DNA of 63,890 nt, the filler included. It is 5 parts of 5 records of this genome, joined end to end, with 100 filler letters (N's around TTAATTAATTAA, not from the genome) between each part and the next. Parts side by side here need not be neighbours in the genome. Positions count along the whole stretch, not along the records: positions 1 to 29,273 come from DRR723986_5151; 4 more parts are not named here. The stretch is one strand, 5' to 3'. Positions 1 through 18,426 of this stretch are shown here, one piece after another. Every line of letters begins with the position of its first letter. Position 1 is the stretch's first letter. A program made the position numbers and the translations under genes. The notes under the pieces were generated by a model, which did no database searches, had not been told where the DNA came from, and saw only the letters and a list, made by a program, of their open reading frames with translations.

Positions 1-1
1 T

Positions 2-499
2 CAGTTCGATGTCGCGGTGCTGCACGGGCGTCCTGAAGCGCAAGGACAGGAAAGCTGGCTGATTGCCCCGGACCGGGTGTTTCCGGTTTGCGCTCCGTCG
101 ATGTTGCATGAACTGCCAGCGAAGCCGAGCCTGCGCGATCTGCTGGATTTTCCGCTGCTGGAATTCGCGCCCACGCTGCGCGACTGGCTGCACTGGCCGG
201 ATTTCCTGAAGGCGCATGGCATCGACACGCTGCCAAAGCCGAAAACCACCTTCGACAGCTATGCCATCGCAATCGAGGCCGCCCGGCTTGGGCAGGGCAT
301 CCTGCTCGGTTGGGAAATTGTGGTCGATCCGCATCTGAAAAACGGGGCTCTGACATCTATCGGCCCGTGGGAAATGGACGCGCCCGGTGGTTTGCGCATC
401 CATTTCTCGCCACGCGGGCTGTCCGACCCCGCCCGATCCTTTGCGCATTGGCTTAGGCATCCCGAGTTGTCCCAGTCCCTCACCCTCCCCGGTGCTTGA
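2..499 (+). CDS. LysR-family (GcvA-like) regulator, substrate-binding C-terminal part; 5'-truncated
   Basis: Frame is open from the window start (QFDVAVLHG...). Contains W..WPDFL and FDSYAIAIEAARLGQGILLGW, typical of GcvA-type LTTR C-termini. Confidence 0.8.
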   Translation, partial: QFDVAVLHGRPEAQGQESWLIAPDRVFPVCAPSMLHELPAKPSLRDLLDFPLLEFAPTLRDWLHWPDFLKAHGIDTLPKPKTTFDSYAIAIEAARLGQGILLGWEIVVDPHLKNGALTSIGPWEMDAPGGLRIHFSPRGLSDPARSFAHWLRHPELSQSLTLPGA

Positions 500-2165
500 A
501 GCTGTCGCGGCGGAAGGAATAGAGCGCGGCCGGGTCCACCGACACATCCACCACTGCGGGCTTGCCGCAATCGAGCGCGGCCTTGATGCAATCCGCAGTC
601 TCATCCAAAGTTTCCGCCTTGAAACCCGCCGCGCCGTAAAGCTCCGCCAGTTTGTCAAACGGCGGGCTGGAGATATCGGCGCCGATATAACGCTGGCCGA
701 AGAAATCGCGCTGATAGGCCTTTTCCGCCCCCCAACAGCCGTTGTTCATGACCACGGTCACGGTGTTGATGCCGTGATCGACGGCGGTGGACAGTTCCGA
801 CACCGTCATGCCAAAGCCGCCATCGCCCATCAGGCTGACAACGGGCCTGTCGGGCATCGCCAGTTTGACGCCCAAACCGCAGGCAAAGGAAAAGCCCACA
901 AGCCCGAAGTCGAGTGGGGTGAACAGGCTTTTGGGTTGCCAATAGTTCATCGCATCCGTGGCCTGCAGACACAGCGTGCCAGCATCCATCGTCAGCGCGC
1001 TGTCCTTCGGCAGCACATCGCGCAGGGTCTTGAACAGGCCCGAAGGCTGGATGGGCATCGTTGCCACATCCGCATCAGCGTCGCGCTTGGCCAGATAGGC
1101 CTGCCGTTCGGTCTTGTAAGCGGCAGTCCATGCCTCTGCCAGTTTGCGGTCATCCAGCTTGGCCAGCGCCGCCACCAGTTGCCGCGCCGCCGTGGGGGCA
1201 TCGGCGAGGATGCCAAGGGTCGAGGGGAAATAGCGCCCTATTGCGGTCGGCTCCTGCTCGATCTGGATGATCGCGGCCTCGCGGTTGATGTTGTCATAGC
1301 TGTAGAAGGTGGAATTGAAGCCGAGCCGGGTGCCAAGCGCCAGGATCACGTCGGCCTCTTTCACCAGCCGGGACGCGACCGGGTTGCCGCGCGGGCCCAT
1401 CTGGCCTGCGTTCAACGGATGGCCGAAGGGCAGCGCGTCGCCGTGGCCGGGTGAGGTCACGATGGGACAGCCCGCCGCCTCGGCCAGCGCCAGCGCGTCG
1501 TCAGCGGCCCCGGTCATCTTGATGCCGCCACCCGCGACGATCACGGGGCGCGCCGCGCCGCGCAGCATGGCGGCGGCCTTGGCAATCGCGTCCGCCGCCC
1601 CGGCAGCGGGGGCATAGGCATAGGTCTCTGGCCCCTGAAGCGGCTCGAACTCTGCCTCGCCCGACAGCACATCGCGCGGCAGGTTCAACTGCACCGGGCC
1701 TTTGCGGGGGGCCTGCGCCACGCGGAAGGCCTCGCGCACCATTTCTGGCACCCGGTCGGTGCTGGTCGCGGTCCATGTCTTCTTGGTGATGGGCGTGAAC
1801 AGCGCCTCCTGATCGACCTCCTGAAAGGCATCGCGGTACTTGTGGCCAGAGGACAGCATCCCCGCGATGGACACGACCGGCGAATAGGCCGCTTTGGCCT
1901 GTGCCAGCCCGGTCACGAGGTTGGTGGCCCCCGGCCCGTTCTGGCCTGCAAGGATTACCCCGGCACGACCCGAAGCGCGGGCAAAGCCATCGGCCATATG
2001 GGTGCCTGTGCGTTCGTCATGTACACCGGTGAACCTGATCTCGGGCGCGTCATACAGCGCGTCGAACATCTCCATCGTGGCAGAGCCGATAAGCCCGAAG
2101 ATATGGTCCACCTTCTCGGCCTTCAGCGCCTCGACCGCCGCCTGTCCGCCTGTCAGTTTCGTCAT
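480..2165 (-). CDS. Thiamine-diphosphate enzyme, sulfoacetaldehyde acetyltransferase (Xsc)-like / acetolactate synthase superfamily
   Basis: HDE catalytic Glu, GQNGPGATN, ThDP motif GDGGFGM...NN. FGLIGSA and WGAEK segments resemble Xsc as recalled. Confidence 0.8.
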   Translation of the reverse strand: MTKLTGGQAAVEALKAEKVDHIFGLIGSATMEMFDALYDAPEIRFTGVHDERTGTHMADGFARASGRAGVILAGQNGPGATNLVTGLAQAKAAYSPVVSIAGMLSSGHKYRDAFQEVDQEALFTPITKKTWTATSTDRVPEMVREAFRVAQAPRKGPVQLNLPRDVLSGEAEFEPLQGPETYAYAPAAGAADAIAKAAAMLRGAARPVIVAGGGIKMTGAADDALALAEAAGCPIVTSPGHGDALPFGHPLNAGQMGPRGNPVASRLVKEADVILALGTRLGFNSTFYSYDNINREAAIIQIEQEPTAIGRYFPSTLGILADAPTAARQLVAALAKLDDRKLAEAWTAAYKTERQAYLAKRDADADVATMPIQPSGLFKTLRDVLPKDSALTMDAGTLCLQATDAMNYWQPKSLFTPLDFGLVGFSFACGLGVKLAMPDRPVVSLMGDGGFGMTVSELSTAVDHGINTVTVVMNNGCWGAEKAYQRDFFGQRYIGADISSPPFDKLAELYGAAGFKAETLDETADCIKAALDCGKPAVVDVSVDPAALYSFRRDSFKHRGG

Positions 2166-2189
2166 TGTCGCGTTTCCTTGTCTGTCGTC

Positions 2190-2984
2190 TCAGCCCTTAT
2201 GACGGGCGAGGAAATCCATCACCGGGGCGCTGAACGCGCCCGGCTGTTCGATAAGCCCCAGATGCTGAAGCCCCGGCACGATGATCGTCTCTGCCCCCGC
2301 GATTTCGCTGGCGATGGCATGGGACATGGCGGGGCTGCTGCCGCTGTCATTTTCGCAGGTCATGACCAGCGTCGGATGGGTGATCGGCGGCGCGGGTCGG
2401 ATCAGCTCTGTCACACCCGCCGCCAGCACCATCCGGTGGCCCGCGTAGTTGACCGGATCGTTGCGCAGGACGACCTGTTTGACCGCCTCAACCGCTTGCG
2501 GATGATCGCGGCGGAACCCGTCCGTAAACCAGCGCGCCAGGGTGACGTCGATATTCGCCCCCGGTCCGCCCGCCGCCGTATCCGCCGCGCGTGCCTCGAC
2601 CAGTTTTTGCTGCTCTTCCCCGCGCTCATGCGGAGAGTTGAGGATCGCCAGCGCCGACACCCGGTCGGGGTGGTCCATCGCCAGACGCCGGTTGATCATG
2701 CCGCCAAGCGAAAAGCCCACAAGCGCCGCCTCAGCAATGCCAAGCCCATCCATCAGCCCGACCAGTTGCTGCGACAGGGTCGTCAGGCTTGGGGGGGTGT
2801 CGGGGATCGCCGTATCCCCATGGCCGAGCAGGTCATAGCGCAGCACCCGGAACCGCGCGGCAAGCGCCGGGGCGATGGCGCCCCAGGTGCTGTCCCGCGT
2901 CAGGCCAAGCCCGTGAATCAGTGCCACGACCGGCGCGTCCTCGGGCCCCGTCAGGTCATAGGCGGTGCCCGAAAGAAACGGCAT
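2190..2984 (-). CDS. Alpha/beta hydrolase (PcaD/TgnD-like)
   Basis: IHGLG oxyanion motif, YDLLGHG, nucleophile elbow GFSLG, C-terminal His in GLQH. Confidence 0.85.
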   Translation of the reverse strand: MPFLSGTAYDLTGPEDAPVVALIHGLGLTRDSTWGAIAPALAARFRVLRYDLLGHGDTAIPDTPPSLTTLSQQLVGLMDGLGIAEAALVGFSLGGMINRRLAMDHPDRVSALAILNSPHERGEEQQKLVEARAADTAAGGPGANIDVTLARWFTDGFRRDHPQAVEAVKQVVLRNDPVNYAGHRMVLAAGVTELIRPAPPITHPTLVMTCENDSGSSPAMSHAIASEIAGAETIIVPGLQHLGLIEQPGAFSAPVMDFLARHKG

Positions 2985-3580
2985 CAGACGCCCGCCGGGT
3001 TGTCCACGTCCCGGCCCATTTCGCGCAAGTCTTCATAGCGGTTGCCGATCCGATGATGGGGGTGGCCGCCAAGGCTGCCACCAAGGGCGACGATGATCTC
3101 ATCCTCTGCGGGGGCATCGGGGATGGTGGTTTGCAGCGTCTGATAATGCGACCGCCGCCCGCCATCATCCTTGTCCATCATCGGAATGGTGATCATGCAG
3201 CCCGCCGCACCACGGGTGTTGGAAAACACCAGATAGGTCTTGGCATCAATCGCCTCGCGCAGCTGGTTGCCGAACCACAAAGAATGGGTCAGCGCCTGCG
3301 CATGTTCCACCTCGCCGCCCATGCCCACGACCGAAGCCTTGCCGACGCCCTCGATGGTGCCACCCGACAGGCGCAGCAATTCCTCGGTCAGCAGCTTGCC
3401 AAGAGGCGGGCAGTGTTCGCGGATCTCTGGCTTCATGTCTTCCACGAAACCGCGTCCGAACCACGGGTTCCGGATCACCGCCATTGCGGCGAACATTCGG
3501 GTGGGTTCAGGCACCTCGCGGCCCCCTTCCACATGGGTGATTTGAGTCATCGTAAGGATGCGGCGGATTTCTACGGCCAT
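2984..3580 (-). CDS. Amino-acid-synthesis family protein (DUF1185)
   Basis: AVIRNPWFGRG, GKASVVGMGGEVEHA, RSHY and DAPAEDEII motifs; TGATG overlap with the next gene. Confidence 0.8.
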   Translation of the reverse strand: MAVEIRRILTMTQITHVEGGREVPEPTRMFAAMAVIRNPWFGRGFVEDMKPEIREHCPPLGKLLTEELLRLSGGTIEGVGKASVVGMGGEVEHAQALTHSLWFGNQLREAIDAKTYLVFSNTRGAAGCMITIPMMDKDDGGRRSHYQTLQTTIPDAPAEDEIIVALGGSLGGHPHHRIGNRYEDLREMGRDVDNPAGV

Positions 3581-3615
3581 GGTCTGTCTGTTCCTGTTCG
3601 CGAGTGTTTCTGGGG

Positions 3616-4647
3616 TCAGGCGTAGGCCGGCATGACCTTGTCGATAAAGAGCTTCAGGCTCTCTTTCTGCTGGTCCATATCCATGCCCATGGAGGCGTAG
3701 TAGATGAAGGAATCCACACCGATCGCCTCATATAGCTTCAGCTTTTCGATCACCGTTTCTGGCGTGCCGAACATCAGGTTTTCTTCCAGCATCACCGGAT
3801 CGACGCGGAAATTGCCTTCCAGCGCCTCGGTGTTCACCGTGTCGGGGAAGCCGTTGTTTACCTCACCCGTCTTGGTCATGAGATTGCCGAACATCGCCAG
3901 TTGCACCCGGATCGCGGCCAGCGCCCGCTGGCGGTCTTCCTCGGTTTCATACACGGCAGTGTGGCGCATCATCGCCCATTGGCCCTTGAACGGCCCATGC
4001 TTGGCAATCGCATCGTCCAGACGGCCGCGATAGCTCTCGGCTTCGCTCATCGGCATGGTCAGCGGCCAGCTCATGATATTGCAGCCGTGTTCCACCGCGT
4101 AATCAAAGGTGATCGGCGCGCGGGCGGCGACCCAGATCGGCACGTCGTCCTGCACCGGCTTGGGGCAAGAGGTCGCCTTGGGGAAATGCCAGAACTCGCC
4201 GTTATGCTCGTAATCGCCCTTCCACAGCTCCTGCACGACGGGCAGCATTTCCTGCATGTAGCGCCAGCTGTCGCGCTGATCGAGGCCCGGCTTCATCCGA
4301 TCAAACTCACGCTGATACGCGCCAGAGCCGATGCCGAATTCGAGCCGTCCGTCACTGGTCAGGTCCAGAAACGCCGCCTCACCGGCAAGGTTGATCGGAT
4401 GCCAATAGGCCGCGTTCACGACGCCGACGCCAAGTCGGATGTTCCTGGTATGCTCGCCCCACCAGGTCAGGATCTGGAACGGGTTCGGCGCAATGGTCAT
4501 TTCCAGCGCGTGGTGTTCTGCGGCCCAGGCAATCTCGAACCCCGCTTCATCGGCCATCTTGACCATGTCCAGCGTATGGTCGCGGACGGCCATGATGTCC
4601 GTGTCGGGGGTCATGCGTTCGAGGTTGATCGCGAGATGGAATTTCAT
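3616..4647 (-). CDS. LLM-class (luciferase-like) flavin-dependent monooxygenase, TgnB-like
   Basis: AEHHALEMTIAPNPF, WHPINLAGEAA, LWKGDYEHNGEFWHFPK closely resemble the trigonelline monooxygenase oxygenase subunit as recalled. Confidence 0.85.
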   Translation of the reverse strand: MKFHLAINLERMTPDTDIMAVRDHTLDMVKMADEAGFEIAWAAEHHALEMTIAPNPFQILTWWGEHTRNIRLGVGVVNAAYWHPINLAGEAAFLDLTSDGRLEFGIGSGAYQREFDRMKPGLDQRDSWRYMQEMLPVVQELWKGDYEHNGEFWHFPKATSCPKPVQDDVPIWVAARAPITFDYAVEHGCNIMSWPLTMPMSEAESYRGRLDDAIAKHGPFKGQWAMMRHTAVYETEEDRQRALAAIRVQLAMFGNLMTKTGEVNNGFPDTVNTEALEGNFRVDPVMLEENLMFGTPETVIEKLKLYEAIGVDSFIYYASMGMDMDQQKESLKLFIDKVMPAYA

Positions 4648-5768
4648 CCTAGAGGCTCCTTCATGGCGTTGAGGGAAAGAGTTGCATCGTCATACCAGCG
4701 CGCAAAGCTGGCGACGTTGGCTTCCAGAAGCGGGTGCAGCACGCCCGGGCGGGCCGAGGGGCAGGCCAGCCCACGCTGCTGGTTTTCCAGCGCTTCCAGG
4801 TCTTCGTCGAGTGCCGCGTCGAGCCGGTCATGATAGATCGCGACAGAGGCGTCTGCCCCGGGCTGTGCCAGTGTTTCGGGGTGGAAACAGGCGGATTGGA
4901 CAACGCGGCAGCGGTCGGGCGTCAGCGGATAGGCTTCGTATACCCACAACGCATCGGAATTGGCTGCGAAGGTCATATTCGGAAAAATCCAAGTATAGCG
5001 CGCGCCATAGGCTTCGCGGCCCGAAAGACCCGGCATCGGCGGCAAGGCATGGGCCTGTTGCGTCTCGAGCAAGCCGCCGGTGCCCGCTGTCGCACCGAAC
5101 TGGCTGGCGTAGGAACCTTGCGTTGGCGTCTTGTCGTCGGGTTGGCCGTAGATGCTGTTGATGGAGTCAGGGTGGACGAAGGGCAGATGATAGTAATCGT
5201 TGAAGACGTCGAGAAACGCCTTCCAGTTGCAAGCGACCTCGATCTCGCGGCGACGGGTCGTCACCAGATCTGCCAGAGGCCAGGGGGCATGGACTGCTTC
5301 GAAATCCCCCAGAACGTCATCGAGCGCAGGCGCGTCATCGGACAGGCACAGGAAGGCAAAGCCCGCCCGTTCCTCCACCCGGTAGGGAATGAGCCCGTTC
5401 TCCGCCTTGTCAAACCCGGCGACAGCATCCATCTGCGGCGCGGCGACCAGCGATCCGTCCAGCCGGTAGGCCCAGGAATGGAACGGGCAGCGGATGCCAC
5501 GGCATTCGCCCTCGCCCTCCATCAGCCGGGCCGCGCGATGGCGGCAGGTGTTGGCGAAGGCGCGCAGCGTGCCCTCACGGTCGCGCAACAGCAGAATGGA
5601 TTGCCCTGCAATGTCGAGCGTGCGGAACCGGCCCGCATCGGGCACCAGATCAGCGCGCCCGATCCCGATCCAGTGACGCCCAAAGAGCGCCTTGTCGAGA
5701 TCATCGAAGGCCGGGGACATGTAGGCCTCCGGGGAAATGGAATACTGGCAGTCGGCTTGATCCCTCAT
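4644..5768 (-). CDS. Rieske non-heme iron oxygenase alpha subunit (choline monooxygenase / quaternary-amine dealkylase-like)
   Basis: Rieske ligands CRH...CPFH; mononuclear Fe motif NWK...DYYHLPFVH; ATGA overlap with the LLM gene. Confidence 0.88.
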   Translation of the reverse strand: MRDQADCQYSISPEAYMSPAFDDLDKALFGRHWIGIGRADLVPDAGRFRTLDIAGQSILLLRDREGTLRAFANTCRHRAARLMEGEGECRGIRCPFHSWAYRLDGSLVAAPQMDAVAGFDKAENGLIPYRVEERAGFAFLCLSDDAPALDDVLGDFEAVHAPWPLADLVTTRRREIEVACNWKAFLDVFNDYYHLPFVHPDSINSIYGQPDDKTPTQGSYASQFGATAGTGGLLETQQAHALPPMPGLSGREAYGARYTWIFPNMTFAANSDALWVYEAYPLTPDRCRVVQSACFHPETLAQPGADASVAIYHDRLDAALDEDLEALENQQRGLACPSARPGVLHPLLEANVASFARWYDDATLSLNAMKEPLG

Positions 5769-5772
5769 GGTG

Positions 5773-7248
5773 TTACCTCGGCTGGAAGGGGCTGGCTACG
5801 GGATCATCGGACATGTTCATCCAGACGGTCTTGGGGCGGGTGAAATCCCACAGCGCCTGAAAGCCGCTTTCGCGCCCGTAGCCAGAGTTTTTCATGCCGC
5901 CAAACTCCGCAATGGGCGAAATGGCGCGATAGGTGTTGACCCAGACAATGCCCGCCTTGATGCGCTTGGACATGCGCAACGCGCGGGCGTTGTTGCGGGT
6001 GAAGATCCCGGCGGCAAGGCCGTGGACCGTGTCATTGGCCAGCGCCAGCGCCTCTTCTTCGGTGCGGAAGCGTTGCACAGCAAGGACGGGGCCAAACAGT
6101 TCCGTGTCGACGATGGTCAGGTCGTTGCGGGGGCAGTCGATGATCGTGGGCTGAAAATACAGCCCCGGCAGCCCCTCGGGCCGCTTGCCGCCGACCAGAA
6201 CGGTGCCGCCCTCTTCCTGCGCGAGTGCCACTTGCCGGGTGATGTGGTCAAGCTGGCCTTGGGTACACAGCGGCCCCATCTCGGTTTCTTCTGCCTGCGG
6301 ATCACCGATCAGGATGCCTTGGGCAATGCCCACCATCCGGGCGAGAAATTCATCCGCGATATCTTCATGCAGGTAGAGCCGTGAGCCCGCCACGCAGCTT
6401 TGCCCCGATGCCGCAAAGATCCCGGCGACCGAGCCATTGACCGCACTTTCGATATCGGCGTCGTCAAACACGATGAAGGGGGATTTGCCGCCCAGTTCCA
6501 GCGACACCTCCGCGAAGTTTTCCGCCGAGTTGCGCACAACATGCCGGGCCGCCGCCGGGCCACCGGTAAAGGCGATGCGGGCGACCAGCGGGTGTTTCGT
6601 CAACGCCTCGCCGCAGGCGACTCCGCCGGTGACGATATTGACGACGCCATCGGGAATGCCGGCCTCAGCGACCAGCTTGCCAAATTCCAGCAAAGGCGCG
6701 GACGCGTGTTCCGAGGCCTTCAGGACGATGGTGTTGCCGGTTGCCAGCGCCGGGCCGATCTTGACCGCGCTCAGGAACATCTGCGAATTCCACGGGATCA
6801 CGGCGGCAATTACCCCAAGCGGTTCGCGGTTGGTGAAAACGAACATGTCGGGCTTGTCTATGGGCAGCGTCTCGCCATGGATCTTGTCGGCAGCCCCCGC
6901 ATAGAAGCGAAGGAATTCCGCGATATAGCTCGCCTGCCAGCGGGTTTCCTTGAACATCTTGCCGGTGTCGCGGGTCTCGACCCGGCCAATATGCTCCGAG
7001 TTTGCCGCCAGCAGATCCGCCAGTCGGCCAAGGCACTTGCCCCGCTCCGTCGGCGTCATCTGTCCCCATGGCCCATCCAGCGCCGCATGGGCGGCCCGCA
7101 CCGCGCAGTCCACATCCTCGGGCGTGGCTTCGGGGATCTGGCACCACTCGATACCGGTCGACGGGTCGAAGGTGGTAAAGCGCTGCCCGTCAGAGGCCTG
7201 CACCCAGTCCCCGCCGATCAGCATGTCGTAAGTCGTCAGCGCAGCCAT
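5773..7248 (-). CDS. Aldehyde dehydrogenase (TgnC/betaine aldehyde DH-like)
   Basis: PWN, ELGGKSP, catalytic Cys in GQSCVAG, ELFGPV, FGGMKNSGYGRE. Confidence 0.93.
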   Translation of the reverse strand: MAALTTYDMLIGGDWVQASDGQRFTTFDPSTGIEWCQIPEATPEDVDCAVRAAHAALDGPWGQMTPTERGKCLGRLADLLAANSEHIGRVETRDTGKMFKETRWQASYIAEFLRFYAGAADKIHGETLPIDKPDMFVFTNREPLGVIAAVIPWNSQMFLSAVKIGPALATGNTIVLKASEHASAPLLEFGKLVAEAGIPDGVVNIVTGGVACGEALTKHPLVARIAFTGGPAAARHVVRNSAENFAEVSLELGGKSPFIVFDDADIESAVNGSVAGIFAASGQSCVAGSRLYLHEDIADEFLARMVGIAQGILIGDPQAEETEMGPLCTQGQLDHITRQVALAQEEGGTVLVGGKRPEGLPGLYFQPTIIDCPRNDLTIVDTELFGPVLAVQRFRTEEEALALANDTVHGLAAGIFTRNNARALRMSKRIKAGIVWVNTYRAISPIAEFGGMKNSGYGRESGFQALWDFTRPKTVWMNMSDDPVASPFQPR

Positions 7249-7781
7249 CAGTTCAGGGCCCCTCTGGTTTCAATGATCTTGGGCAGGACGCGGTGATAGG
7301 CGCCGTCCAGGTAAGTCAGGGGTTCGCGGTCGCCATGGCCCACGGCCTCGACCCGGCCAAAGACGACAAGGTGACTGCCCGATTGCACCACGTTGTCGAC
7401 GGTGCAGGCAAAGCTGGTCGCCCCCTTGATCTGCGGCGGCATTCCCTTGGTTCCCTGGCAGGGAATATCGGTGAACCGATCCTCGACATCGCGGTCATGG
7501 GCGCCTGCAAACCGGTCGGCGATGCCGTCGCTGTGTTCGGGCAGCACGTTGACGCAAAAGCGCCCGTTGCTTTCGACCGCAGACGCGATGCGGCTTTTGG
7601 CATGCAGGCAGACCAGCACCGTCGGCGGATCGGCCGAGACCGATGAAAAGGCGCTGACCGTGGCTCCGTGACGGCCTGCGGTGCCGTCGGTGGTGACAAC
7701 CGTCACGCTCGACGCCACGCGGCGCATGGCGGTGATGAATTCAGACCGCTCGACAGCGGGTGTTGGGGGCGTTCCCTGCAT
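7248..7781 (-). CDS. Flavin reductase (HpaC/TgnA-like)
   Basis: VTVVTTDG, SVSADPPTVLVCL, GSHLVVFGRV, PLTYLDGAY. Confidence 0.9.
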   Translation of the reverse strand: MQGTPPTPAVERSEFITAMRRVASSVTVVTTDGTAGRHGATVSAFSSVSADPPTVLVCLHAKSRIASAVESNGRFCVNVLPEHSDGIADRFAGAHDRDVEDRFTDIPCQGTKGMPPQIKGATSFACTVDNVVQSGSHLVVFGRVEAVGHGDREPLTYLDGAYHRVLPKIIETRGALN

Positions 7782-7868
7782 CGCAACCTCCCTTGCTCTG
7801 CGTTTTCGCGTATTGGGAGAGTTGCAGATTCTGACATATCTGTATAACGAATTATTTTAAGCAATAAA

Positions 7869-7883
7869 TTCAAAATACCTGAA
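7869..7883. promoter_or_regulatory. LysR recognition box (T-N11-A) in the divergent promoter region
   Basis: TTCA-AAATACC-TGAA dyad in the AT-rich intergenic region 7782-7893. Confidence 0.55.
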
Positions 7884-7893
7884 GTGAGATTCC

Positions 7894-8724
7894 ATGAACC
7901 TCGCCGCCCTGCAAACCTTCGTGGCCATCGTCGAAACCGGGTCGCTGGTACGGGCCTCGGAACGCCTACATGTGACGCAATCGACCGTGACCATGCGCCT
8001 GAAGGCGCTGGAGGCCGAACTGGGGCAAACCGTGCTGAACCGGCAGAAATCCGGTGTGACCCTGACGCCCGCAGGCACCAAGCTGCTGAACTATGCGCAG
8101 ATCATGATTGGCCTGTGGCGCCAGGCCAAGCTGGAGGCCGGGCTGCCAACGGGCGTCAACATGATCTGCAATTTCGGCTGCACCCCCGAGCTCTGGCCCA
8201 TTCGGGGCAAGCGTATCTTCGACATGATCCGCAGCCGCCAGCCGGATATTGCCCTGTCCGTCTATCACGGTAGCCCAGAGATTCTGGATCGGTGGATGGC
8301 GACCGGGCAGATCGACCTGTGCCTGACGCGCGACCCGGTGGCACGCAAGGGCCAGACAGTTATGACACTGCCTGCGGACGCGCTGGCACTTTATTCGGAC
8401 CGGCCCGATACGCCGATCCGCAGCGGGTCCAACTATATCTTCGTGGACTACGGCGAGGATTTCCGGCGCAGCCATGGCGAGGAATATCACGACGCGGGCA
8501 CCGCGCGGACAACCTTCAACGCTGCTGGCGCTGCTCTGGACTATCTGCTGGAGGTCGGCGGTTCCGTCTATCTTCCCCGCTCGCTGGTCGCGATCCGGCC
8601 GGACGCAGACAGATTGCACGAGATCACCGATGCGCCGCTTTTTGAACTGGGCACCTATCTGCTCATGCCCGAAGCGGCCCGCGACAGCTGGGGCTGGATT
8701 GCCGAAACCCAAGCCGCCACTTAA
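7894..8724 (+). CDS. LysR-family transcriptional regulator, divergent from the catabolic operon
   Basis: N-terminal HTH: LQTFVAIVETGSLVRASERLHVTQSTVTMRLKALEAELG. Confidence 0.93.
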   Translation: MNLAALQTFVAIVETGSLVRASERLHVTQSTVTMRLKALEAELGQTVLNRQKSGVTLTPAGTKLLNYAQIMIGLWRQAKLEAGLPTGVNMICNFGCTPELWPIRGKRIFDMIRSRQPDIALSVYHGSPEILDRWMATGQIDLCLTRDPVARKGQTVMTLPADALALYSDRPDTPIRSGSNYIFVDYGEDFRRSHGEEYHDAGTARTTFNAAGAALDYLLEVGGSVYLPRSLVAIRPDADRLHEITDAPLFELGTYLLMPEAARDSWGWIAETQAAT

Positions 8725-8799
8725 GCCCGTGACTTAAATTGCGCGCCCCCGGACAGTTTGCTAGCTTGCTGTCAGCACCGGGGAGGGTGCAGGGACATC

Positions 8800-9903
8800 A
8801 TGCTCGACTATACGCATAATGGCTGGCTTGTTGCGGCGTCTTTGGCCGTGGCTCTGATGGCGGGTTTCACAGGCTTGTCGTTGACCCATGGCGCGTCACA
8901 ACTTGACCGGCCAAGGCGCAAGATCATCGTGGCCTTGGCGGCGGTGGTCCTCGGCGGCGGCATCTGGTCGATGCATTTCGTGGCGATGCTGGGGCTGCAA
9001 CTGCCGATTCTGTTCTACTACGATGCGCTGATAACGCTCGCCTCGGCACTGATCGCGATCCTGATGGTGGGGCTGGCGCTGCTGCTATTGCATTTTCGCG
9101 CCCGGTCCCTGCCGGTCATTGTCGGTGCGGGCACGATCGTGGGGCTTGGCATCGTTGTGATGCACTATGTCGGCATGGAGGGGATGCAGCTGTGCCGTCC
9201 TGTCTACACCGCCTGGGACGTGGCCCTGGCGACACTGGCCTCGGTTGTTCTTTCTGTGCTGGCGATCTGGGTGGCCTATGATAGCCGCACGCATCGCAAC
9301 ATCGTGCTTGGCACCGCCTGTTTCGGGCTGGCGGTCTTCACCATGCATTTCGTTGCTACGGGACTGACCGGGTTCACTGCCGCCGATGCGGGTGGCGGGG
9401 CCGGACCGCTGCTCAGCAATCAGGTGCTGGCCATGGGCGTGACCGTGTCGGCCTTCCTGATCTGCGGGGCCTTCCTGCTGACCGGCATCACCTTTATCGA
9501 GCCTGCGGCCCCCGCAGCGGCTGTCCCTGTCCCCGCCGCGCCCCCTGCCCCGCGCGCAGCCCATGGCGCGACAGCGGGCGTGCCCTATGAGCGCGACGGA
9601 AAAACCGTGTTCGCCGCCCCTGTCCGCATCGCGGCGCTGCGCGCCGAGGGGCATTACACCGTGCTTTATGTCGGGGCCGAAAAGCTCTTCTGCCCATGGA
9701 GTATTTCCGAGGCAGAAGACCGGTTGGGCGCATCGGGTTTTTTACGCGTCCACCGCAGCTATCTGGTGAACCCCTCCCATGTCTCCAGCTTTGAGCGGCA
9801 CAAGGACAACGGAACCTGTTATTTCGAGGGAGTCGCGGCGCTGCCCAAGGTGCCAGTCAGCCGATCGCGCCTGAATGACATTCGCGAGGCGCTTGGGCTC
9901 TGA
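8800..9903 (+). CDS. coxC: MHYT-LytTR membrane sensor/regulator CoxC
   Basis: Three MHYT repeats (IWSMHFV, VMHYVGM, TMHFV) and C-terminal LytTR (FLRVHRSYLVN); directly upstream of coxM. Start moved to ATG 8800. Confidence 0.88.
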   Translation: MLDYTHNGWLVAASLAVALMAGFTGLSLTHGASQLDRPRRKIIVALAAVVLGGGIWSMHFVAMLGLQLPILFYYDALITLASALIAILMVGLALLLLHFRARSLPVIVGAGTIVGLGIVVMHYVGMEGMQLCRPVYTAWDVALATLASVVLSVLAIWVAYDSRTHRNIVLGTACFGLAVFTMHFVATGLTGFTAADAGGGAGPLLSNQVLAMGVTVSAFLICGAFLLTGITFIEPAAPAAAVPVPAAPPAPRAAHGATAGVPYERDGKTVFAAPVRIAALRAEGHYTVLYVGAEKLFCPWSISEAEDRLGASGFLRVHRSYLVNPSHVSSFERHKDNGTCYFEGVAALPKVPVSRSRLNDIREALGL

Positions 9904-9956
9904 TCGCAATTCGTGCGGCCCATTCGCATTTCGTGAAACAGATGGCGCGGATCGTT
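9904..9956 (+). promoter_or_regulatory. Triple direct repeat, candidate LytTR (CoxC) binding site
   Basis: TCGCAATTCGTG (9904), TCGCATTTCGTG (9924) and a degenerate ATCGTT (9951); period 20-21 bp. Confidence 0.55.
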
Positions 9957-10044
9957 CTCAACCTCTGGAACGGTTCACGCGCTGTCTCATTAGCTGCCTG
10001 CAGACCCCGATGGCCAAAGCCGCGGGCGCAGGGAGGACACCAGA

Positions 10045-10878
10045 ATGATACCAGCCGGATTCGAGTATCACCGGCCGAGCGATGTTGCCTCGGCCATCAG
10101 CATCTTGCACCAGCACGGAGACGAAGCGCGCGTGATCGCGGGCGGGCACAGCCTGATCCCGATGATGAAACTGCGCATGGCCGATCTGGCCCACGTCGTC
10201 GATTTGCAGGACATCGCCGAGATGAAGGGCATTGAGGTGGGGGCCGACAGCGTGTCCATCGGTGCGATGGTGACGCAGCACGAGTTGATCACCCATGACG
10301 GTCTGGCCGCTGCAGTGCCGATCATCCGCGAGGCGGCGCTGCAAATCGCAGACCCGCAAGTGCGCTACATGGGCACCGTCGGCGGCAATGTCGCCAATGG
10401 CGATCCGGGCAATGACATGCCGGGGCTGATGCAGTGCCTGAATGCCAGTTTTGAACTGGCGGGCGCCGATGGCACCCGATCCGTGGCGGCGCGCGACTTT
10501 TACGAGGCCGCTTACTTCACCGCCCGTGATGATGAAGAAATCCTGACGCGGATCACGATCCCGGTCCCGGCTGCTGGCACGGGACAGGCCTATGAAAAGC
10601 AAAAGCGCAAGATCGGCGACTATGCCACCGCTGCTGCTGCCGTGATGGTTGGCGCAGGCTCGGCCTCGGTCGCCATGACCAACCTTGCCGACACGCCGAT
10701 CTGGTCGGCAGAGGCCAGCACCGCGCTCGCAGGCGGAGACGTAGAGGGCTGCGTAGCTGCGATGCTCGACGCGATTGATCCGGTCGAGGACAACCGTGGC
10801 CCGGTCGAATTCAAGAAACATGTCGCCGCCGTCATGCTGCGCCGCGCGATTGCGCGCGCCATGAGCCGCGCAAGCTGA
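10045..10878 (+). CDS. coxM: Aerobic CO dehydrogenase medium (FAD) subunit
   Basis: [41 protein letters not shown]. Confidence 0.95.
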
Positions 10879-10889
10879 GGAGAACACCC

Positions 10890-11384
10890 ATGTCAAAGAT
10901 GCACGTAAAACTGAACGTGAACGGACGCGAGGTCGAGGGCCTTGCCGAGCCGCGCACCCTATTGATCCATTTCCTGCGGGAAAACCTTCGGATCACCGGG
11001 CCGCACATTGGCTGTGAAACCAGCCATTGCGGGGCCTGCACCGTCGATATCGACGGCAAGTCTGTCAAATCCTGCACGGTCTTCGTGGCGCAGGCAAACG
11101 GCGCCGACGTGACCACCGTTGAGGGGCTGGTGAACGAGGATGGCAGCCTTGGCGTCATCCAGGAAATGTTCCGCGAACATCACGGGCTGCAATGCGGATT
11201 CTGCACGCCGGGCATGATCACCCGCGCACACCGCCTGTTGCAGGAAAACCCGAGCCCGAGCGAGGAAGAGGTGCGTTTCGGCATGGCCGGAAACCTCTGC
11301 CGCTGCACCGGCTACCAGAACATCGTCAAGGCAATCCTCGCGTCGGCTGACATGCTGAACGCGCAGAAGGAGGCTGCGGAATGA
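10890..11384 (+). CDS. coxS: Aerobic CO dehydrogenase small (2x[2Fe-2S]) subunit
   Basis: [11 protein letters not shown]...[15 protein letters not shown]. Confidence 0.96.
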
Positions 11385-13798
11385 ACGACCAGACCCTAAC
11401 CCCCGAAGAACGCACCGCCAACCTCAAGGGCATGGGCTGCTCGCGCAAGCGGGTCGAGGATGTGCGCTTTACCCAAGGCAAGGGCAACTATGTCGATGAC
11501 ATTAAGATGGACGGGATGCTGTTTGGCGACTTCGTCCGCTCGCCCTACGCCCATGCCCGCGTGGTGTCTGTCAACAAGGAAGCCGCTCTGGCAATGCCCG
11601 GCGTCATCGCCGTTCTGACCGCCGAAGACCTCGCGCCACTTGGCCTGCACTGGATGCCCACACTGGCCGGTGACAAGCAGATGGTTCTGGCCGACGGCAA
11701 GGTGCTGTTCCAGGGCCAGGAGGTCGCCTATGTGGTCGCCGAGGATCGCTACATCGCGGCGGACGCCGTGGAACTGGTGGAGGTGGAATACGAGGAACTT
11801 CCGGTTCTGGTCGACCCGTTCGAGGCGCTGAAATCGGACGTTGTCCTGCGCGAAGACCTTGCCGGTCAGACCGAGGGTGCCCATGGCCCCCGCAAGCATC
11901 ACAACCATATTTTCACTTGGGAAGCTGGTGAAAAGGACGCGACCGAGGCGGTGATCGACGGCGCGGACGTGGTGGCCGAGGAGATGGTCTACTACCACCG
12001 CACCCACCCCTGCCCGCTGGAAACCTGCGGCTGCGTGGCGTCGATGGACAAGGTCACCGGCAAGCTGACGCTTTACGGCACCTTCCAGGCCCCGCACGCG
12101 ATCCGCACCGTGGTGTCGCTGATCTCGGGCCTGGCCGAACACAACATCCGCGTGATCAGCCCCGATATCGGCGGCGGGTTCGGCAACAAGGTGGGCGCGT
12201 ATCCGGGCTATGTCTGTTCTGTCGTGGCGTCGATCGTGACCGGGAAGCCGGTGAAGTGGGTCGAGGACCGGATGGAAAATCTGATGTCCACCGCATTCGC
12301 CCGCGACTACTGGATGCAGGGCAAGATCGCGGCCACGAAAGAGGGCAAGATCACCGGGCTGTGGTGCCACACCACGGCGGATCACGGCGGCTTTGACGCC
12401 TGTGCCGACCCCACCAAGTTCCCGGCCGGCTTCATGAACATCTGCACCGGGTCTTACGACATCCCCACGGCCTATCTGGCTGTGGACGGGGTCTACACCA
12501 ACAAGGCACCGGGCGGCGTGGCCTATCGCTGTTCCTTCCGGGTGACGGAAGCGGCCTATTTCATCGAGCGGATGATCGAGGTTCTGGCGATCAAGCTTGA
12601 TATGGATGCAGCCGAACTGCGCCGGATCAACTTCATCCGCAAGGATCAGTTCCCCTATCAGTCGGCACTTGGCTGGGAATATGACTCGGGCGATTACCAC
12701 ACCGCATGGGACAAGGCGCTGAAGGCCGTGGACTATGACGGGCTGCGGGCCGAACAGGCGCAAAGGGTTGAGGATTTCAAGGCTGGCAAGACGCGCAAGC
12801 TGCTTGGGGTTGGCCTGTGTCACTTCACGGAAATCGTGGGGGCCGGGCCGGTCAAGAACTGCGATATCCTCGGGCTTGGCATGTTCGACAGCTGCGAGAT
12901 CCGCATCCATCCCACCGGATCGGCCATCGCAAGGCTTGGCACCATCAGCCAGGGTCAGGGCCACGCCACGACTTTTGCGCAGATCATCGCCTCGGAAATC
13001 GGCCTCCCCGCCGATGACATCACGCTGGAGGAAGGCGACACCGACACCGCGCCTTATGGTCTGGGCACCTACGGGTCACGGTCCACCCCGGTCGCGGGGG
13101 CTGCCACCGCCATGGCTGCCCGCAAGATCCGCGCCAAGGCGCAGATGATCGCGGCCTATCTGCTGGAGGTCCACGACAACGACGTGGAATGGGACGTGGA
13201 TCGCTTCGCGGTCAAGGGCGCGCCCGAGCGCTTCAAGACCATGAAGAAGATCGCCTTTGCCGCCTACAACCAGGCCATTCCGGGTCTGGAACCGGGGCTG
13301 GAGGCGGTCAGCTACTATGACCCGCCGAACATGACCTACCCGTTCGGGGCCTATATCTGCGTGATGGAGATCGACGTCGATACCGGCGAGTGGGAAATCC
13401 GGCAGTTCTATGCGCTGGACGATTGCGGCACCCGGATCAACCCGATGATCATCGAGGGGCAGGTCCATGGCGGCGTCACCGAGGCGCTGGCCATCGCCAT
13501 GGGGCAGGAGATCGCCTATGACGAGATGGGCAACGTCAAGACCGGCACGCTGATGGATTTCTTCATCCCGACCGCGTGGGAAACGCCCAACTACACCACC
13601 GACCACACGGTCACCCCGTCGCCGCATCATCCGATCGGGGCCAAGGGCGTGGGCGAAAGCCCCAATGTGGGCGGGGTTCCGGCCTTCTCGAACGCCGTGC
13701 ACGATGCCTTCCGGGCCTTCGGTCTGGTGCAAAGCCACATGCCGCATGATCATTGGCGGATCTGGAAGATCGCCAACAATTTGGGTCTTCACGGCTGA
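11381..13798 (+). CDS. coxL: Aerobic CO dehydrogenase large subunit, form I (Mo-Cu)
   Basis: Form I active-site motif AYRCSFR; M-S-L gene order. Confidence 0.97.
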
Positions 13799-13807
13799 TC
13801 GTGAACC

Positions 13808-13841
13808 GGGCTGCCGCGCACGCACCAATGCGCGGCGGCCC
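13808..13841 (+). other. 13-bp GC-rich stem-loop between coxL and coxD
   Basis: GGGCTGCCGCGCA-N8-TGCGCGGCGGCCC, with no U-tract. Confidence 0.6.
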
Positions 13842-13858
13842 ACAACCGGGAGGGTTAG

Positions 13859-14719
13859 ATGAGCGTCACCGACATTCAGCAAGGACTGGCCCGCGCGGGC
13901 TATGTCGCCGATGACCGTCTGGCAATGGCGCTGCATCTGGCGCAGGTTCTGGGTCGGCCCCTGCTGCTGGAAGGGCCTGCCGGTGTGGGCAAGACCGAGG
14001 TGGCCAAGGCCCTTTCGGCGATGCGCGATGCGCGACTGATCCGCCTGCAATGCTACGAAGGGCTCGATGCCAGCCACGCGATCTACGAATGGAACTACCA
14101 GCGTCAATTGCTGGCCATCCGCGCCGCGGAAGGCAGCGCCAGCGAGGACCAGCTTTTCACCGATAAATTCCTGCTGAAGCGCCCATTGCTGGAGGCGATC
14201 AGCCAGGACACCCCACCGGTTCTGCTGATAGACGAGATCGACCGGGCGGATGAGGAATTCGAGGCCTACCTGCTCGAAATCCTGTCCGATTTCCAGATCA
14301 CGATCCCGGAACTTGGGACGATCAAGGCGCGGTCCAAACCCATCGTGATCCTGACCGCCAATGGCACCCGCGATCTATCCGACGCACTGCGCCGCCGGTG
14401 CCTATACAGTTTCCTCGACTACCCAGACAGGGCGACCGAACTGGCCATTCTCAAGGCCCGGATGCCTGCGGTTGAAGGGTTGCTCGCCCGCCAGATCGTC
14501 GGCGTCGTGCAGGCGCTGCGTAAGGAAGACCTGGAAAAGACGCCGGGCATTGCCGAGATGCTGGATTGGGCGGCAGCGCTGTCGGGCCTTGGGGTCAACG
14601 ATCTGGCAAAGGCGCCGGGCGAGGTGCAGGCAACGCTGGTGTGTCTGTTGAAAACAGCGGCCGACTACGACGCCGCCCCGCCAGAGGTCATGGACCGGCT
14701 GATCGGGAAAGTGGCATGA
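13859..14719 (+). CDS. coxD: MoxR-type AAA+ ATPase CoxD
   Basis: Walker A GPAGVGKT, Walker B LLIDEID, DALRRRC. Confidence 0.93.
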   Translation: MSVTDIQQGLARAGYVADDRLAMALHLAQVLGRPLLLEGPAGVGKTEVAKALSAMRDARLIRLQCYEGLDASHAIYEWNYQRQLLAIRAAEGSASEDQLFTDKFLLKRPLLEAISQDTPPVLLIDEIDRADEEFEAYLLEILSDFQITIPELGTIKARSKPIVILTANGTRDLSDALRRRCLYSFLDYPDRATELAILKARMPAVEGLLARQIVGVVQALRKEDLEKTPGIAEMLDWAAALSGLGVNDLAKAPGEVQATLVCLLKTAADYDAAPPEVMDRLIGKVA

Positions 14720-15912: not shown

Positions 15913-15923
15913 AAGGATGCCCG

Positions 15924-18372: not shown

Positions 18373-18377
18373 GCGGG

Positions 18378-18426
18378 AAAAGGGCCTTCGAAGGGCCTTT
18401 TGGAACGCGGTTTCGAAACCGCGTTC
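18378..18426. terminator. Twin hairpins between convergent genes; probable bidirectional terminator
   Basis: AAAAGGGCCTTCGAAGGGCCTTTT followed by the perfect 24-bp palindrome GAACGCGGTTTCGAAACCGCGTTC. Confidence 0.6.

What the first reader, a model, noticed from the sequence alone, without database searches (positions are those of the whole stretch)
480..8724. Trigonelline/homarine-type ring-cleavage operon extended with a Rieske oxygenase and an Xsc-like ThDP enzyme: candidate pathway for an uncharacterised N-substituted pyridinium or betaine
Seen: seven co-oriented, tightly packed genes (three ATGA/TGATG overlaps): flavin reductase, ALDH, Rieske alpha, LLM monooxygenase, DUF1185, alpha/beta hydrolase, ThDP enzyme, with a divergent LysR and a T-N11-A box. 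Known: flavin reductase + LLM + ALDH + hydrolase is the TgnABCD core that opens the N-methylpyridinium ring of trigonelline, and a similar set is linked to homarine use in marine bacteria. As I recall those clusters, they include neither a Rieske oxygenase nor an Xsc-like enzyme, and there is no second ALDH (TgnE equivalent) here. Inference: the operon degrades a different zwitterionic pyridinium or amine whose N-substituent is removed by the Rieske enzyme and whose aldehyde product, possibly sulfonated, is cleaved by the ThDP enzyme.
Basis: partly seen in the sequence, partly recalled or inferred. Interest (0 to 1): 0.78.

Follow-up and report, generated by a model that had tools for sequence, protein, structure and literature searches.

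The report
Trigonelline-like ring-opening operon, marine variant
This is a real seven-gene operon in a marine Nioella-like bacterium: an uncharacterised sister version of the known pathway that breaks open the ring of trigonelline, with a thiamine-dependent enzyme as a regular extra gene and an iron-sulfur oxygenase as a rare add-on.

Summary
Seven co-oriented minus-strand genes sit opposite a divergent LysR gene: flavin reductase, ALDH, Rieske oxygenase, LLM monooxygenase, DUF1185, alpha/beta hydrolase and a ThDP enzyme. There are three start/stop overlaps.

- **Not TgnB.** The LLM is 39% identical to an Acinetobacter gene annotated tgnB. The S. meliloti pSymA homologue is 72% identical to that gene. 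The window's hydrolase is only 26% identical to the Tgn-position hydrolase.
- **ThDP enzyme.** It is a regular partner of this LLM clade, next to the LLM in 26 of 38 loci. In 401 sampled Alphaproteobacteria, 5 of the 6 genomes with this LLM type have its orthologue and none of the other 395 do. It is not Xsc: it scores 397 bits against a 676-bit cut-off, and relatives carry a true Xsc elsewhere.
- **Rieske gene.** It is a sporadic cassette (5 of 38 loci) and a clean insertion/deletion between Nioella species, so it cannot be an obligatory step.
- **Homarine.** The published hom operon is described with a different gene set.
- **Substrate.** Betaine-type transporters and methylamine genes beside relatives suggest an N-methylated zwitterion. 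The compound is unknown.

This scan has already noted related Tgn-like clusters on other DNA.

The parts
7894..8724 (+). Divergent LysR-family regulator (276 aa)
   Evidence: PF00126 HTH_1 at 4.9e-20, with a weak LysR_substrate match. A homologue sits in the same divergent position in 31 of 38 clade loci.
7782..7893 (.). Shared regulatory region between LysR and the operon, with a conserved AT-rich motif block
   Evidence: Alignment A1 of 23 relatives has 10 invariant and 9 nearly invariant columns and an interrupted TTGC...GCAA dyad in the consensus. A sigma-70-like match lies at 7831-7858 on the + strand, but the scan found 3 sites against 1.9 expected, so this is not significant.
7248..7781 (-). 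Short flavin reductase (177 aa), TgnA-like in role
   Evidence: PF01613 at 8e-36. It is 32% identical over 153 aa to the 310-aa protein annotated tgnA. It is present in 25 of 38 clade loci, so it is dispensable.
5773..7248 (-). Aldehyde dehydrogenase, TgnC-like
   Evidence: PF00171 at 3.9e-157. It is 53% identical to the protein annotated tgnC and 33% to the SSADH of the same Acinetobacter cluster.
4644..5768 (-). Accessory Rieske non-haem iron oxygenase alpha subunit (374 aa); no reductase partner in the operon
   Evidence: PF00355 + PF00848. GbcA model 153.6 bits against a cut-off of 670. Best solved relative is CntA at 128 bits. Motifs are intact. It is a clean insertion/deletion relative to L004 and L008.
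3616..4647 (-). Luciferase-like flavin monooxygenase, the predicted ring-opening enzyme; sister clade to TgnB
   Evidence: PF00296 at 3.9e-56. It is 39% identical to the annotated tgnB. It falls in a 38-row clade with 100% SH-aLRT support, separated from the S. meliloti-type clade by a branch of 2.04.
2984..3580 (-). DUF1185 / PF06684 protein, TgnF-like helper
   Evidence: PF06684 at 2.2e-57. It is 55% identical to the DUF1185 gene of the Acinetobacter tgn cluster.
2190..2984 (-). Alpha/beta hydrolase, PcaD-like, in the TgnD role; a divergent allele in this window
   Evidence: PF00561/PF12697. PcaD model 176 bits against a cut-off of 256. It is 26% identical to the hydrolase in the Tgn position. 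It is 71-72% identical to the other Nioella copies, which are 90-93% identical to each other. The GFSLG nucleophile elbow is kept.
480..2165 (-). ThDP-dependent enzyme (561 aa), an Xsc/acetolactate-synthase-family paralogue; the terminal gene here
   Evidence: Three TPP domains. Xsc models score 397-414 bits against cut-offs of 620-676. Orthologues lie directly after the hydrolase in 26 of 38 clade loci. At genome level it co-occurs with this LLM type.

Best explanation
This is a LysR-controlled catabolic operon of a marine Paracoccaceae bacterium close to Nioella. It encodes a paralogous, uncharacterised version of the trigonelline (Tgn) ring-opening pathway.

Proposed mechanism, by homology with Tgn:
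1. The flavin reductase supplies reduced flavin.
2. The LLM oxidatively opens an N-heterocyclic, most likely N-methylated, zwitterion.
3. The ALDH oxidises the resulting aldehyde or lactol.
4. The PcaD-like hydrolase releases the nitrogen fragment (formate plus methylamine in Tgn) and a short oxo-acid or aldehyde. The DUF1185 protein acts as a helper.
5. The ThDP enzyme handles the carbonyl product of the hydrolase. In relatives it is followed by a small CMD-family decarboxylase-like gene. This pair sits where Tgn clusters carry SSADH (plus CMD in Acinetobacter).
6. The Rieske oxygenase is an optional cassette. It probably N-dealkylates or hydroxylates a related quaternary compound so that it can enter the pathway, and it uses a reductase encoded elsewhere.

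What is shown: gene content, operon structure, clade membership and co-occurrence patterns. What is inferred: every chemical step and the substrate class.
For: **Gene set and coupling.**

**Homology to an annotated tgn cluster** (Acinetobacter sp. PK01 plasmid: GntR, then DUF1185, hydrolase, tgnA, tgnB, tgnC, permease, hypothetical gene, SSADH, CMD). Identities are ALDH 53%, DUF1185 55%, LLM 39%, hydrolase 26%.

**Distinct clade.** The S. meliloti pSymA LLM is 72% identical to that tgnB. S. meliloti without pSymA does not grow on trigonelline (PMC4207669, methods passage). In the quick tree the window's LLM lies across a 2.04 branch from that clade.

**Paralogy.** Single assemblies hold both types: L010 with L080, L013 with L076, and L033 with L061.

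**ThDP link.**
- It lies next to the LLM in 26 of 38 clade loci.
- It is always directly after the hydrolase.
- In 401 sampled Alphaproteobacteria, orthologues of at least 72% identity occur in 5 genomes. All 5 are among the 6 genomes with an LLM of at least 62% identity.
- In three of those genomes the hydrolase-ThDP unit lies apart from the LLM.
- None of 11 S. meliloti-type loci has it.

**N-methyl zwitterion context in relatives** (families named).
- OpuAC-type ABC transporter beside LysR in 11 of 38 loci.
- N-methylglutamate-pathway genes (mgs/gmaS-like) nearby in 4 of 38.

**Rieske as an accessory.**
- Present in 5 of 38 clade loci.
- In every cluster copy found it sits between ALDH and LLM, in two cluster architectures: the window, L005, L011, L016 and L100, and also L102.
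- 4 of 5 genomes with its orthologue have an LLM of at least 63% identity.

**Presence in RNA libraries.** Contigs from four runs cover 698-7778 and bridge gene junctions.
Against: - No substrate, product or induction data exist for this clade. My searches found no paper on it.
- The hydrolase is so distant from the Tgn-position hydrolase (26%) that step 4 may differ.
- Relatives carry SSADH-like genes elsewhere: 637 bits in the two Nioella genomes, just under the 646 cut-off, and over the cut-off in G003 and G440. A ThDP enzyme is therefore not needed merely to dispose of succinate semialdehyde.
- 12 of 38 clade loci lack the ThDP gene, and in L027 and L012 the operon simply ends at the hydrolase.
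- This window lacks both the CMD gene and any nearby transporter.
- No Rieske reductase is in the operon.
- 2 of 5 sampled Rieske orthologues sit in unrelated contexts.
- The tree is the quick IQ-TREE search, not the finished one.
Confidence: 0.55

Rival explanations
1. It is simply the marine orthologue of the trigonelline pathway. The substrate is the same, the ThDP enzyme stands in for the dedicated SSADH, and the Rieske gene is a functionally unrelated passenger.
For: - Five of seven genes are Tgn families.
- Trigonelline is a common marine metabolite, and Ruegeria pomeroyi grows on it (PMC8269262, passage seen).
- The two Nioella genomes searched hold only this one LLM type.
- [ThDP-CMD] here parallels [SSADH-CMD] in the Acinetobacter cluster.
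Against: - The LLM is 39% and the hydrolase 26% identical to the annotated tgn genes, while S. meliloti, Pantoea and Acinetobacter versions are 68-72% identical to one another.
- The same assembly can carry both types.
- S. meliloti-type clusters also occur in Rhodobacterales, for example Leisingera, Thioclava and Aliiroseovarius.
- The Rieske gene recurs at the same slot in two architectures, which argues against a random passenger.
Confidence: 0.22
2. One reading: the substrate is a pyridinium or amine whose N-substituent must be removed by the Rieske enzyme, and whose sulfonated aldehyde product is cleaved Xsc-style by the ThDP enzyme.
For: - Xsc is the nearest named family of the ThDP enzyme.
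- The Rieske protein is nearest to N-demethylating and C-N-cleaving quaternary-amine oxygenases.
Against: - The Rieske gene is absent from 33 of 38 clade loci, including the 96%-identical N. aestuarii operon.
- The ThDP enzyme scores 397 bits against a 676-bit cut-off.
- G001, G002, G003 and G303 each have a true Xsc (912-936 bits) elsewhere.
- The recurrent flank families I named (OpuAC transporter, arginase family, TauD, CMD, mgs/gmaS, MttB) include no sulfite exporter or phosphotransacetylase. I did not search for those two families specifically.
Confidence: 0.08
3. The module does not open a pyridinium ring. The LLM, the PcaD-like hydrolase, the CMD protein and the ThDP enzyme act on a lactone or a non-aromatic cyclic amine or betaine such as a proline- or pipecolate-type betaine. 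The Rieske or TauD oxygenases do the first demethylation.
For: - The hydrolase is PcaD-like, and the CMD family includes PcaC-type decarboxylases.
- Two different accessory oxygenases occupy slots in the operon: Rieske in 5 loci and TauD-family in 6.
- ThDP paralogues of 45-50% identity lie near MttB-family genes in 4 loci. In the two I annotated they sit in operons with MttB and an FMN/FAD amine-dehydrogenase-like gene.
- MttB-family genes lie near some clade loci.
Against: - The conserved co-occurrence of LLM, ALDH, DUF1185 and hydrolase is the signature of the Tgn module.
- In the text I could read, the only characterised member of this LLM group is TgnB (PMC11354265, figure legend).
- The accessory oxygenases are each in a minority of loci.
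Confidence: 0.15

Closest known systems
Trigonelline catabolic cluster tgnABCDEF (Acinetobacter baylyi ADP1, Perchat et al. 2018; paper not held). Compared here through an Acinetobacter sp. PK01 plasmid annotated tgnA/tgnB/tgnC and the S. meliloti pSymA cluster.
   Same: Flavin reductase, LLM monooxygenase, ALDH, alpha/beta hydrolase and DUF1185 lie in one operon. The ALDH is 53% and the DUF1185 55% identical.
   Different: - The LLM is 39% identical and lies in a separate clade.
- The hydrolase is 26% identical.
- The flavin reductase is short (177 aa against 310 aa).
- The regulator is LysR instead of GntR.
- There is no SSADH and no NCS1-type permease.
- A ThDP enzyme and a Rieske oxygenase are added.
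Sulfoacetaldehyde acetyltransferase Xsc (TIGR03457 / PRK07525)
   Same: It has the same three-domain ThDP fold, and Xsc is the best-scoring named family.
   Different: It scores 397-414 bits against cut-offs of 620-676. Related genomes have a true Xsc at 912-936 bits elsewhere, and their cluster copy scores 393-415 bits. The best solved relative is BbmA (8x3x, 251 bits), followed by acetolactate synthases and glyoxylate carboligase.
Quaternary-amine Rieske oxygenases: carnitine monooxygenase CntA, glycine betaine monooxygenase GbcA, and the stachydrine demethylase-type entries 3vca/4qup
   Same: Rieske domain plus catalytic domain with intact metal motifs. These are the nearest solved structures and the nearest named family.
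   Different: The GbcA model scores 153.6 bits against a cut-off of 670. The CntA match is 128 bits. No partner reductase gene is in the operon. The gene sits inside a Tgn-like operon.
Homarine operon homABCDER (PMC13236597)
   Same: Both target (or are proposed to target) an N-methylpyridinium carboxylate, and both include an ALDH-like enzyme and a flavin-linked first step.
   Different: The gene families are different as described in the main text: FAD-binding HomA, HomB and a peptidase-like HomC, with N-methylglutamate as product. Supplementary Table 3, which holds the full gene descriptions, could not be seen.
Related Tgn-like clusters already noted by this scan on other DNA (SAR11 cassettes with a look-alike ThDP enzyme; marine clusters joined to CoA genes)
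   Same: The same module families occur. The ThDP enzyme shares short words with the SAR11 cassette enzyme. The Aminobacter/Ruegeria-type architecture with CoA genes was seen here too.
   Different: Those have different LLM lineages and gene orders. In what was shown to me, none was described with the Rieske insert.

Membership tests
Tgn trigonelline pathway (tgnABCDEF) | LLM oxygenase orthologous to TgnB | tested here: not met
   It is 39% identical to the plasmid gene annotated tgnB, whereas the S. meliloti pSymA LLM is 72% identical to it. The two lie in separate clades across a 2.04 branch (quick tree). ADP1 TgnB itself was not available to me.
Tgn trigonelline pathway (tgnABCDEF) | Companion genes: flavin reductase (TgnA), ALDH (TgnC), hydrolase (TgnD), DUF1185 (TgnF) | tested here: inconclusive
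   All four families are present. ALDH (53%) and DUF1185 (55%) look orthologous. The reductase is 32% identical over half the length and the hydrolase 26%, so these two do not look orthologous.
Tgn trigonelline pathway (tgnABCDEF) | Dedicated succinate-semialdehyde dehydrogenase (TgnE) in the cluster | tested here: not met
   The S. meliloti cluster SSADH hits only the operon ALDH, at 32%, in the whole 63.9-kb window.
Tgn trigonelline pathway (tgnABCDEF) | Trigonelline as substrate and inducer | not testable with these tools
   This needs growth, induction or enzyme assays.
Sulfoacetaldehyde acetyltransferase (Xsc) | Score above the curated equivalog cut-off (TIGR03457, 676.4 bits) | tested here: not met
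   It scores 397.3 bits. Orthologues in four relatives score 393-415 bits, while a second gene in each genome scores 912-936 bits.
Sulfoacetaldehyde acetyltransferase (Xsc) | Sulfonate context: neighbouring pta and sulfite export or oxidation genes (feature recalled, not taken from a call) | not tested
   The recurrent flank families I named contain none. I made no targeted search for them.
GbcA/CntA/Stc2-type Rieske monooxygenases | Rieske [2Fe-2S] and mononuclear iron motifs | tested here: met
   CRH-X17-CPFH at residues 75-97 and D-X3-D-X2-H-X4-H at 187-199.
GbcA/CntA/Stc2-type Rieske monooxygenases | Equivalog-level similarity to a characterised member | tested here: not met
   GbcA scores 153.6 bits against a cut-off of 670. 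CntA scores 128 bits and the 3vca/4qup entries about 105 bits, the latter over the N-terminal half only.
GbcA/CntA/Stc2-type Rieske monooxygenases | Cognate reductase gene adjacent | tested here: not met
   The only redox partner in the operon is a PF01613 flavin reductase. No ferredoxin-reductase-type ORF lies between 480 and 8724.
Homarine hom operon | homABCD gene families as published | tested here: not met
   The main-text descriptions do not match this gene set. No hom sequences were available, so this is a comparison of descriptions only.

The most novel reading that the evidence does not exclude
The clade defines a second, widespread marine pathway for an as yet unidentified N-methylated heteroaromatic or cyclic betaine that is not trigonelline. 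Its hydrolase-ThDP(-CMD) unit would be a new terminal module. In it an Xsc-related ThDP enzyme performs a previously undescribed C-C or C-X cleavage or a decarboxylation on the ring-opened product. That unit also works alone on an imported intermediate in genomes where it sits beside a TRAP transporter. Plug-in oxygenases (Rieske here, TauD-family elsewhere) would extend the pathway to quaternary precursors.
Probability: 0.3. Interest if true: 0.72.

Novelty: new variant of a known kind. Interest (0 to 1): 0.5.

Why it matters
Small nitrogen-rich zwitterions made by phytoplankton are a major currency between algae and marine bacteria. Only the trigonelline (2018) and homarine (2026) routes have been worked out for the pyridinium ones.

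This operon type occurs in Roseovarius, Nioella, Marivivens, Cognatishimia, SAR116-like and other marine lineages, and it turns up in RNA libraries.

Identifying its substrate would add a pathway to marine carbon and nitrogen budgets. Explaining the ThDP step could reveal new thiamine-dependent chemistry.

N. ostreopsis carries the Rieske gene and N. aestuarii lacks it. This natural pair gives a ready-made test of what the add-on oxygenase contributes.

Tried and rejected
- **Perchat et al. 2018.** The paper could not be read by DOI or PMC id. What I say about Tgn chemistry is recalled, or taken from citing papers.
- **Whole genome.** None is held for the window, so I worked through relatives' genomes.
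- **Protein atlas.** It gave only generic LLM names.
- **Rfam.** No match in 1-10000 at E up to 0.1, so no known riboswitch. Earlier scan notes report leader RNAs in SAR11 cassettes; I did not look for an unlisted one here.
- **BbmA/CsmA literature search.** It returned nothing relevant.
- **Promoter and terminator scans.** Not above shuffled expectation.
- **RNA libraries.** In X14, X15 and X17 no contig lay on the LysR gene (7921-8580). Their contigs ended at 7767-7778, near the reductase start. No DNA run was laid as a control, and uncovered parts prove nothing, so I draw no conclusion on transcript ends or on LysR expression.
- **'ThDP is present because relatives lack SSADH'.** Rejected, because SSADH-like genes exist elsewhere in all four genomes searched.
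- **Stand-alone Rieske orthologues.** Their contexts in L101 (TatC, M20 peptidase, DUF815, SDR, amidophosphoribosyltransferase-like) and L103 (GMC oxidoreductase, cupin, GNAT, ABC-F) gave no functional hint.
- **Rows dropped from the tree.** L050, L062 and L070 were left out because their LLM matches were partial. L050 does carry the ThDP gene.

Full report
**Observation.**

The window's first 8.7 kb holds seven co-oriented minus-strand ORFs and a divergent LysR gene at exactly the stated coordinates. Pfam and NCBIfam give these assignments:

| Gene | Coordinates | Assignment |
|---|---|---|
| Flavin reductase | 7248-7781 | PF01613 |
| ALDH | 5773-7248 | PF00171 |
| Rieske alpha subunit | 4644-5768 | PF00355 + PF00848 |
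| LLM monooxygenase | 3616-4647 | PF00296 |
| DUF1185 | 2984-3580 | PF06684 |
| Alpha/beta hydrolase | 2190-2984 | PcaD-like, 176 bits, below cut-off |
| ThDP enzyme | 480-2165 | three TPP domains |
| LysR | 7894-8724 (+) | PF00126 |

The three overlaps are TGATG at 7248, ATGA at 4644-4647 and TGATG at 2984. Metal and cofactor motifs of the Rieske and ThDP proteins are intact. The organism is close to Nioella: the LLM is 96% identical to those of N. aestuarii and N. ostreopsis. No whole genome is held for the window.

**Relation to the known pathways.**

TgnB is a luciferase-like enzyme (PMC11354265, figure legend). TgnF is a DUF1185 homologue that stimulates TgnE (PMC7913881, discussion passage). 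Five of the seven genes are therefore Tgn families, not four.

An Acinetobacter sp. PK01 plasmid carries a cluster annotated tgnA, tgnB and tgnC. Its order is GntR, then DUF1185, hydrolase, tgnA, tgnB, tgnC, an NCS1-type permease, a hypothetical gene, SSADH and a CMD-family gene.

S. meliloti pSymA carries the same core beside noeAB, plus NIPSNAP, an ABC transporter and SSADH. Its LLM is 72% identical to that tgnB. S. meliloti cured of pSymA cannot grow on trigonelline (PMC4207669, methods passage).

Identities of the window's proteins to the Acinetobacter set are:
- LLM 39%
- ALDH 53%
- DUF1185 55%
- hydrolase 26%
- reductase 32% over 153 residues

In a quick maximum-likelihood tree of 83 LLMs, the S. 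meliloti-type sequences sit across a branch of 2.04 from all the others. The window falls in a 38-row clade with 100% SH-aLRT support. The careful tree search did not finish, and three partial rows were dropped.

Single assemblies hold both types: L010 with L080, L013 with L076, and L033 with L061. These are paralogous systems.

The homarine operon is described in the paper's main text as a different gene set.

**The ThDP enzyme.**

Its best named family is Xsc, but it scores 397-414 bits against cut-offs of 620-676. In four related genomes a different gene scores 912-936 bits, and the cluster copy scores 393-415 bits. It is therefore an Xsc-family paralogue, not Xsc. The best solved relatives are BbmA, then acetolactate synthases and glyoxylate carboligase.

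It is nevertheless a regular partner of this LLM clade:
- It lies within 6 kb of the LLM in 26 of 38 clade loci.
- It is always directly after the hydrolase, and in 20 of 26 cases a small CMD-family gene follows it.
- In an evenly drawn sample of 401 Alphaproteobacteria, orthologues of at least 72% identity occur in 5 genomes.
- Those 5 are among the 6 genomes with an LLM of at least 62% identity. None of the other 395 has one.
- In three of the five the ThDP gene sits apart from the LLM: as a hydrolase-ThDP pair in L114 and L116, and as ThDP-CMD at a contig end in L117. L114 is beside a TRAP transporter and L116 beside MttB/GcvT-type genes.
- None of 11 S. meliloti-type loci has the ThDP gene or the Rieske gene.

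Against a strict requirement, 12 of 38 clade loci lack it. Where I looked (L027, L012), the operon simply ends at the hydrolase. Relatives also carry SSADH-like genes elsewhere.

**The Rieske oxygenase.**

Its nearest solved relatives are carnitine monooxygenase CntA and the stachydrine demethylase-type entries. Its nearest NCBIfam is GbcA, far below cut-off.

It is rare:
- 3 of 80 LLM-anchored loci.
- 5 of 38 clade loci.
- 5 of 301 sampled genomes of the family.

N. aestuarii has no orthologue; its best match is 32% identical. DNA alignment shows a clean presence/absence. The window and N. ostreopsis are colinear across the gene. In L004 and L008 the ALDH stop is followed after about 10 bases by the LLM start.

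The gene is still not random:
- Every cluster copy found sits between ALDH and LLM. This holds in the window's architecture (L005, L011, L016, L100) and in a second, Aminobacter/Ruegeria-type architecture (L102).
- 4 of the 5 genomes with an orthologue have an LLM of at least 63% identity.
- In other relatives a TauD-family dioxygenase occupies another slot, between ThDP and CMD, in 6 loci.

I read both oxygenases as optional plug-ins.

**Context that bears on the substrate.**

| Feature in relatives | Loci (of 38) |
|---|---|
| OpuAC-type betaine ABC transporter co-directional with LysR | 11 |
| Arginase-family gene | 8 |
| N-methylglutamate-pathway genes (GATase, GXGXG, Glu_synthase, Gln-synt_C) | 4 |

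The Acinetobacter tgn cluster likewise lies next to sarcosine-oxidase-type genes. This fits release of methylamine from an N-methylated zwitterion.

The window itself has no transporter, CMD, TauD or methylamine genes anywhere in its 63.9 kb. Upstream of LysR lie an MHYT-LytTR regulator and a cox-type molybdenum hydroxylase cluster.

**Regulation and expression.**

The LysR/operon intergenic region is conserved across 23 relatives, with an interrupted dyad. Contigs from three culture-type RNA libraries (two studies) and one estuary metatranscriptome match at 95-100% identity. They cover 698-7778 and bridge the Hyd/DUF1185, LLM/Rieske and Rieske/ALDH/reductase junctions. These are contigs from RNA libraries. 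They show presence, not a single transcript, and DNA carry-over is not excluded.

**Verdict.**

This is a real operon and a new variant of a known kind. The core mechanism is inferred by homology with Tgn. The substrate is probably an N-methylated heterocyclic zwitterion, and I think it is less likely than not to be trigonelline itself.

The ThDP (plus CMD) tail is the most interesting unexplained part. The Rieske gene is an accessory.

Earlier notes of this scan describe related Tgn-like clusters in SAR11 and other marine genomes, some with a look-alike ThDP enzyme. The theme is therefore not new to the scan, and I treated those notes as leads only. My literature searches found no paper on this clade.

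Noticed in passing
window 2190-2984: The hydrolase gene is a local outlier. DNA identity to N. ostreopsis is 0.73, against 0.86-0.90 for the neighbouring genes. Its protein is 71-72% identical to five other Nioella copies, which are 90-93% identical to each other, and 74% to a Roseovarius copy. This looks like allelic replacement by recombination inside the operon. The GFSLG motif is kept.
   Followed up: partly
window 1-499: Synteny with N. ostreopsis ends at base 484, right after the ThDP stop. The CMD-family gene that follows ThDP in 20 of 26 relatives is missing. A convergent LysR gene lies there instead; only its C-terminal part is in the window, and its best match is the choline-sulfate utilisation regulator, below cut-off.
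   Followed up: partly
window 8758-16733: An MHYT-LytTR regulator is followed by a cox-type molybdenum hydroxylase cluster: a large subunit at 11381-13798, an AAA ATPase, a VWA CoxE-like protein and an XdhC-like protein. The medium and small subunits at 10045-11384 were presumed and not scanned. The cluster is colinear in N. ostreopsis and probably unrelated to the operon.
   Followed up: no
window 17371-22683: A sugar- or inositol-like block: a LacI regulator, two GFO/IDH/MocA oxidoreductases, a xylose-isomerase-like TIM barrel protein and a PfkB kinase.
   Followed up: no
L120 6248-11441; L122 8990-14158: Paralogues of the ThDP enzyme (45-50% identical) lie near MttB-family genes in four loci (L119-L122). 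In the two I annotated they sit in tight operons with an MttB-family methyltransferase and a 648-aa FMN/FAD oxidoreductase (Oxidored_FMN + Pyr_redox_2). The wider ThDP subfamily therefore recurs in methylated-amine catabolism.
   Followed up: partly
L114 9381-14890; L116 9518-17016: Hydrolase-ThDP pairs stand alone without an LLM. One is next to a fused TRAP DctM transporter. The other is next to a second hydrolase, an MttB-family gene and a GcvT-like gene. The same genomes carry the LLM elsewhere.
   Followed up: partly
L005 15144-18334: In N. ostreopsis, just beyond the operon, there is a second ThDP paralogue (31% identical to the operon's) followed by an ALDH-like gene.
   Followed up: no
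window 4822 and 6054: Contigs of one RNA-library sample (X14 = X17) match up to these places and then continue with unlike sequence. This may come from a second, more divergent strain or from a rearranged copy (table 7).
   Followed up: no
L153 16086-16472: The Acinetobacter tgn-annotated cluster also ends with a CMD-family gene directly after SSADH. This parallels ThDP-CMD in the window's clade, although the two CMD proteins are only weakly similar (34% over 50 residues).
   Followed up: partly
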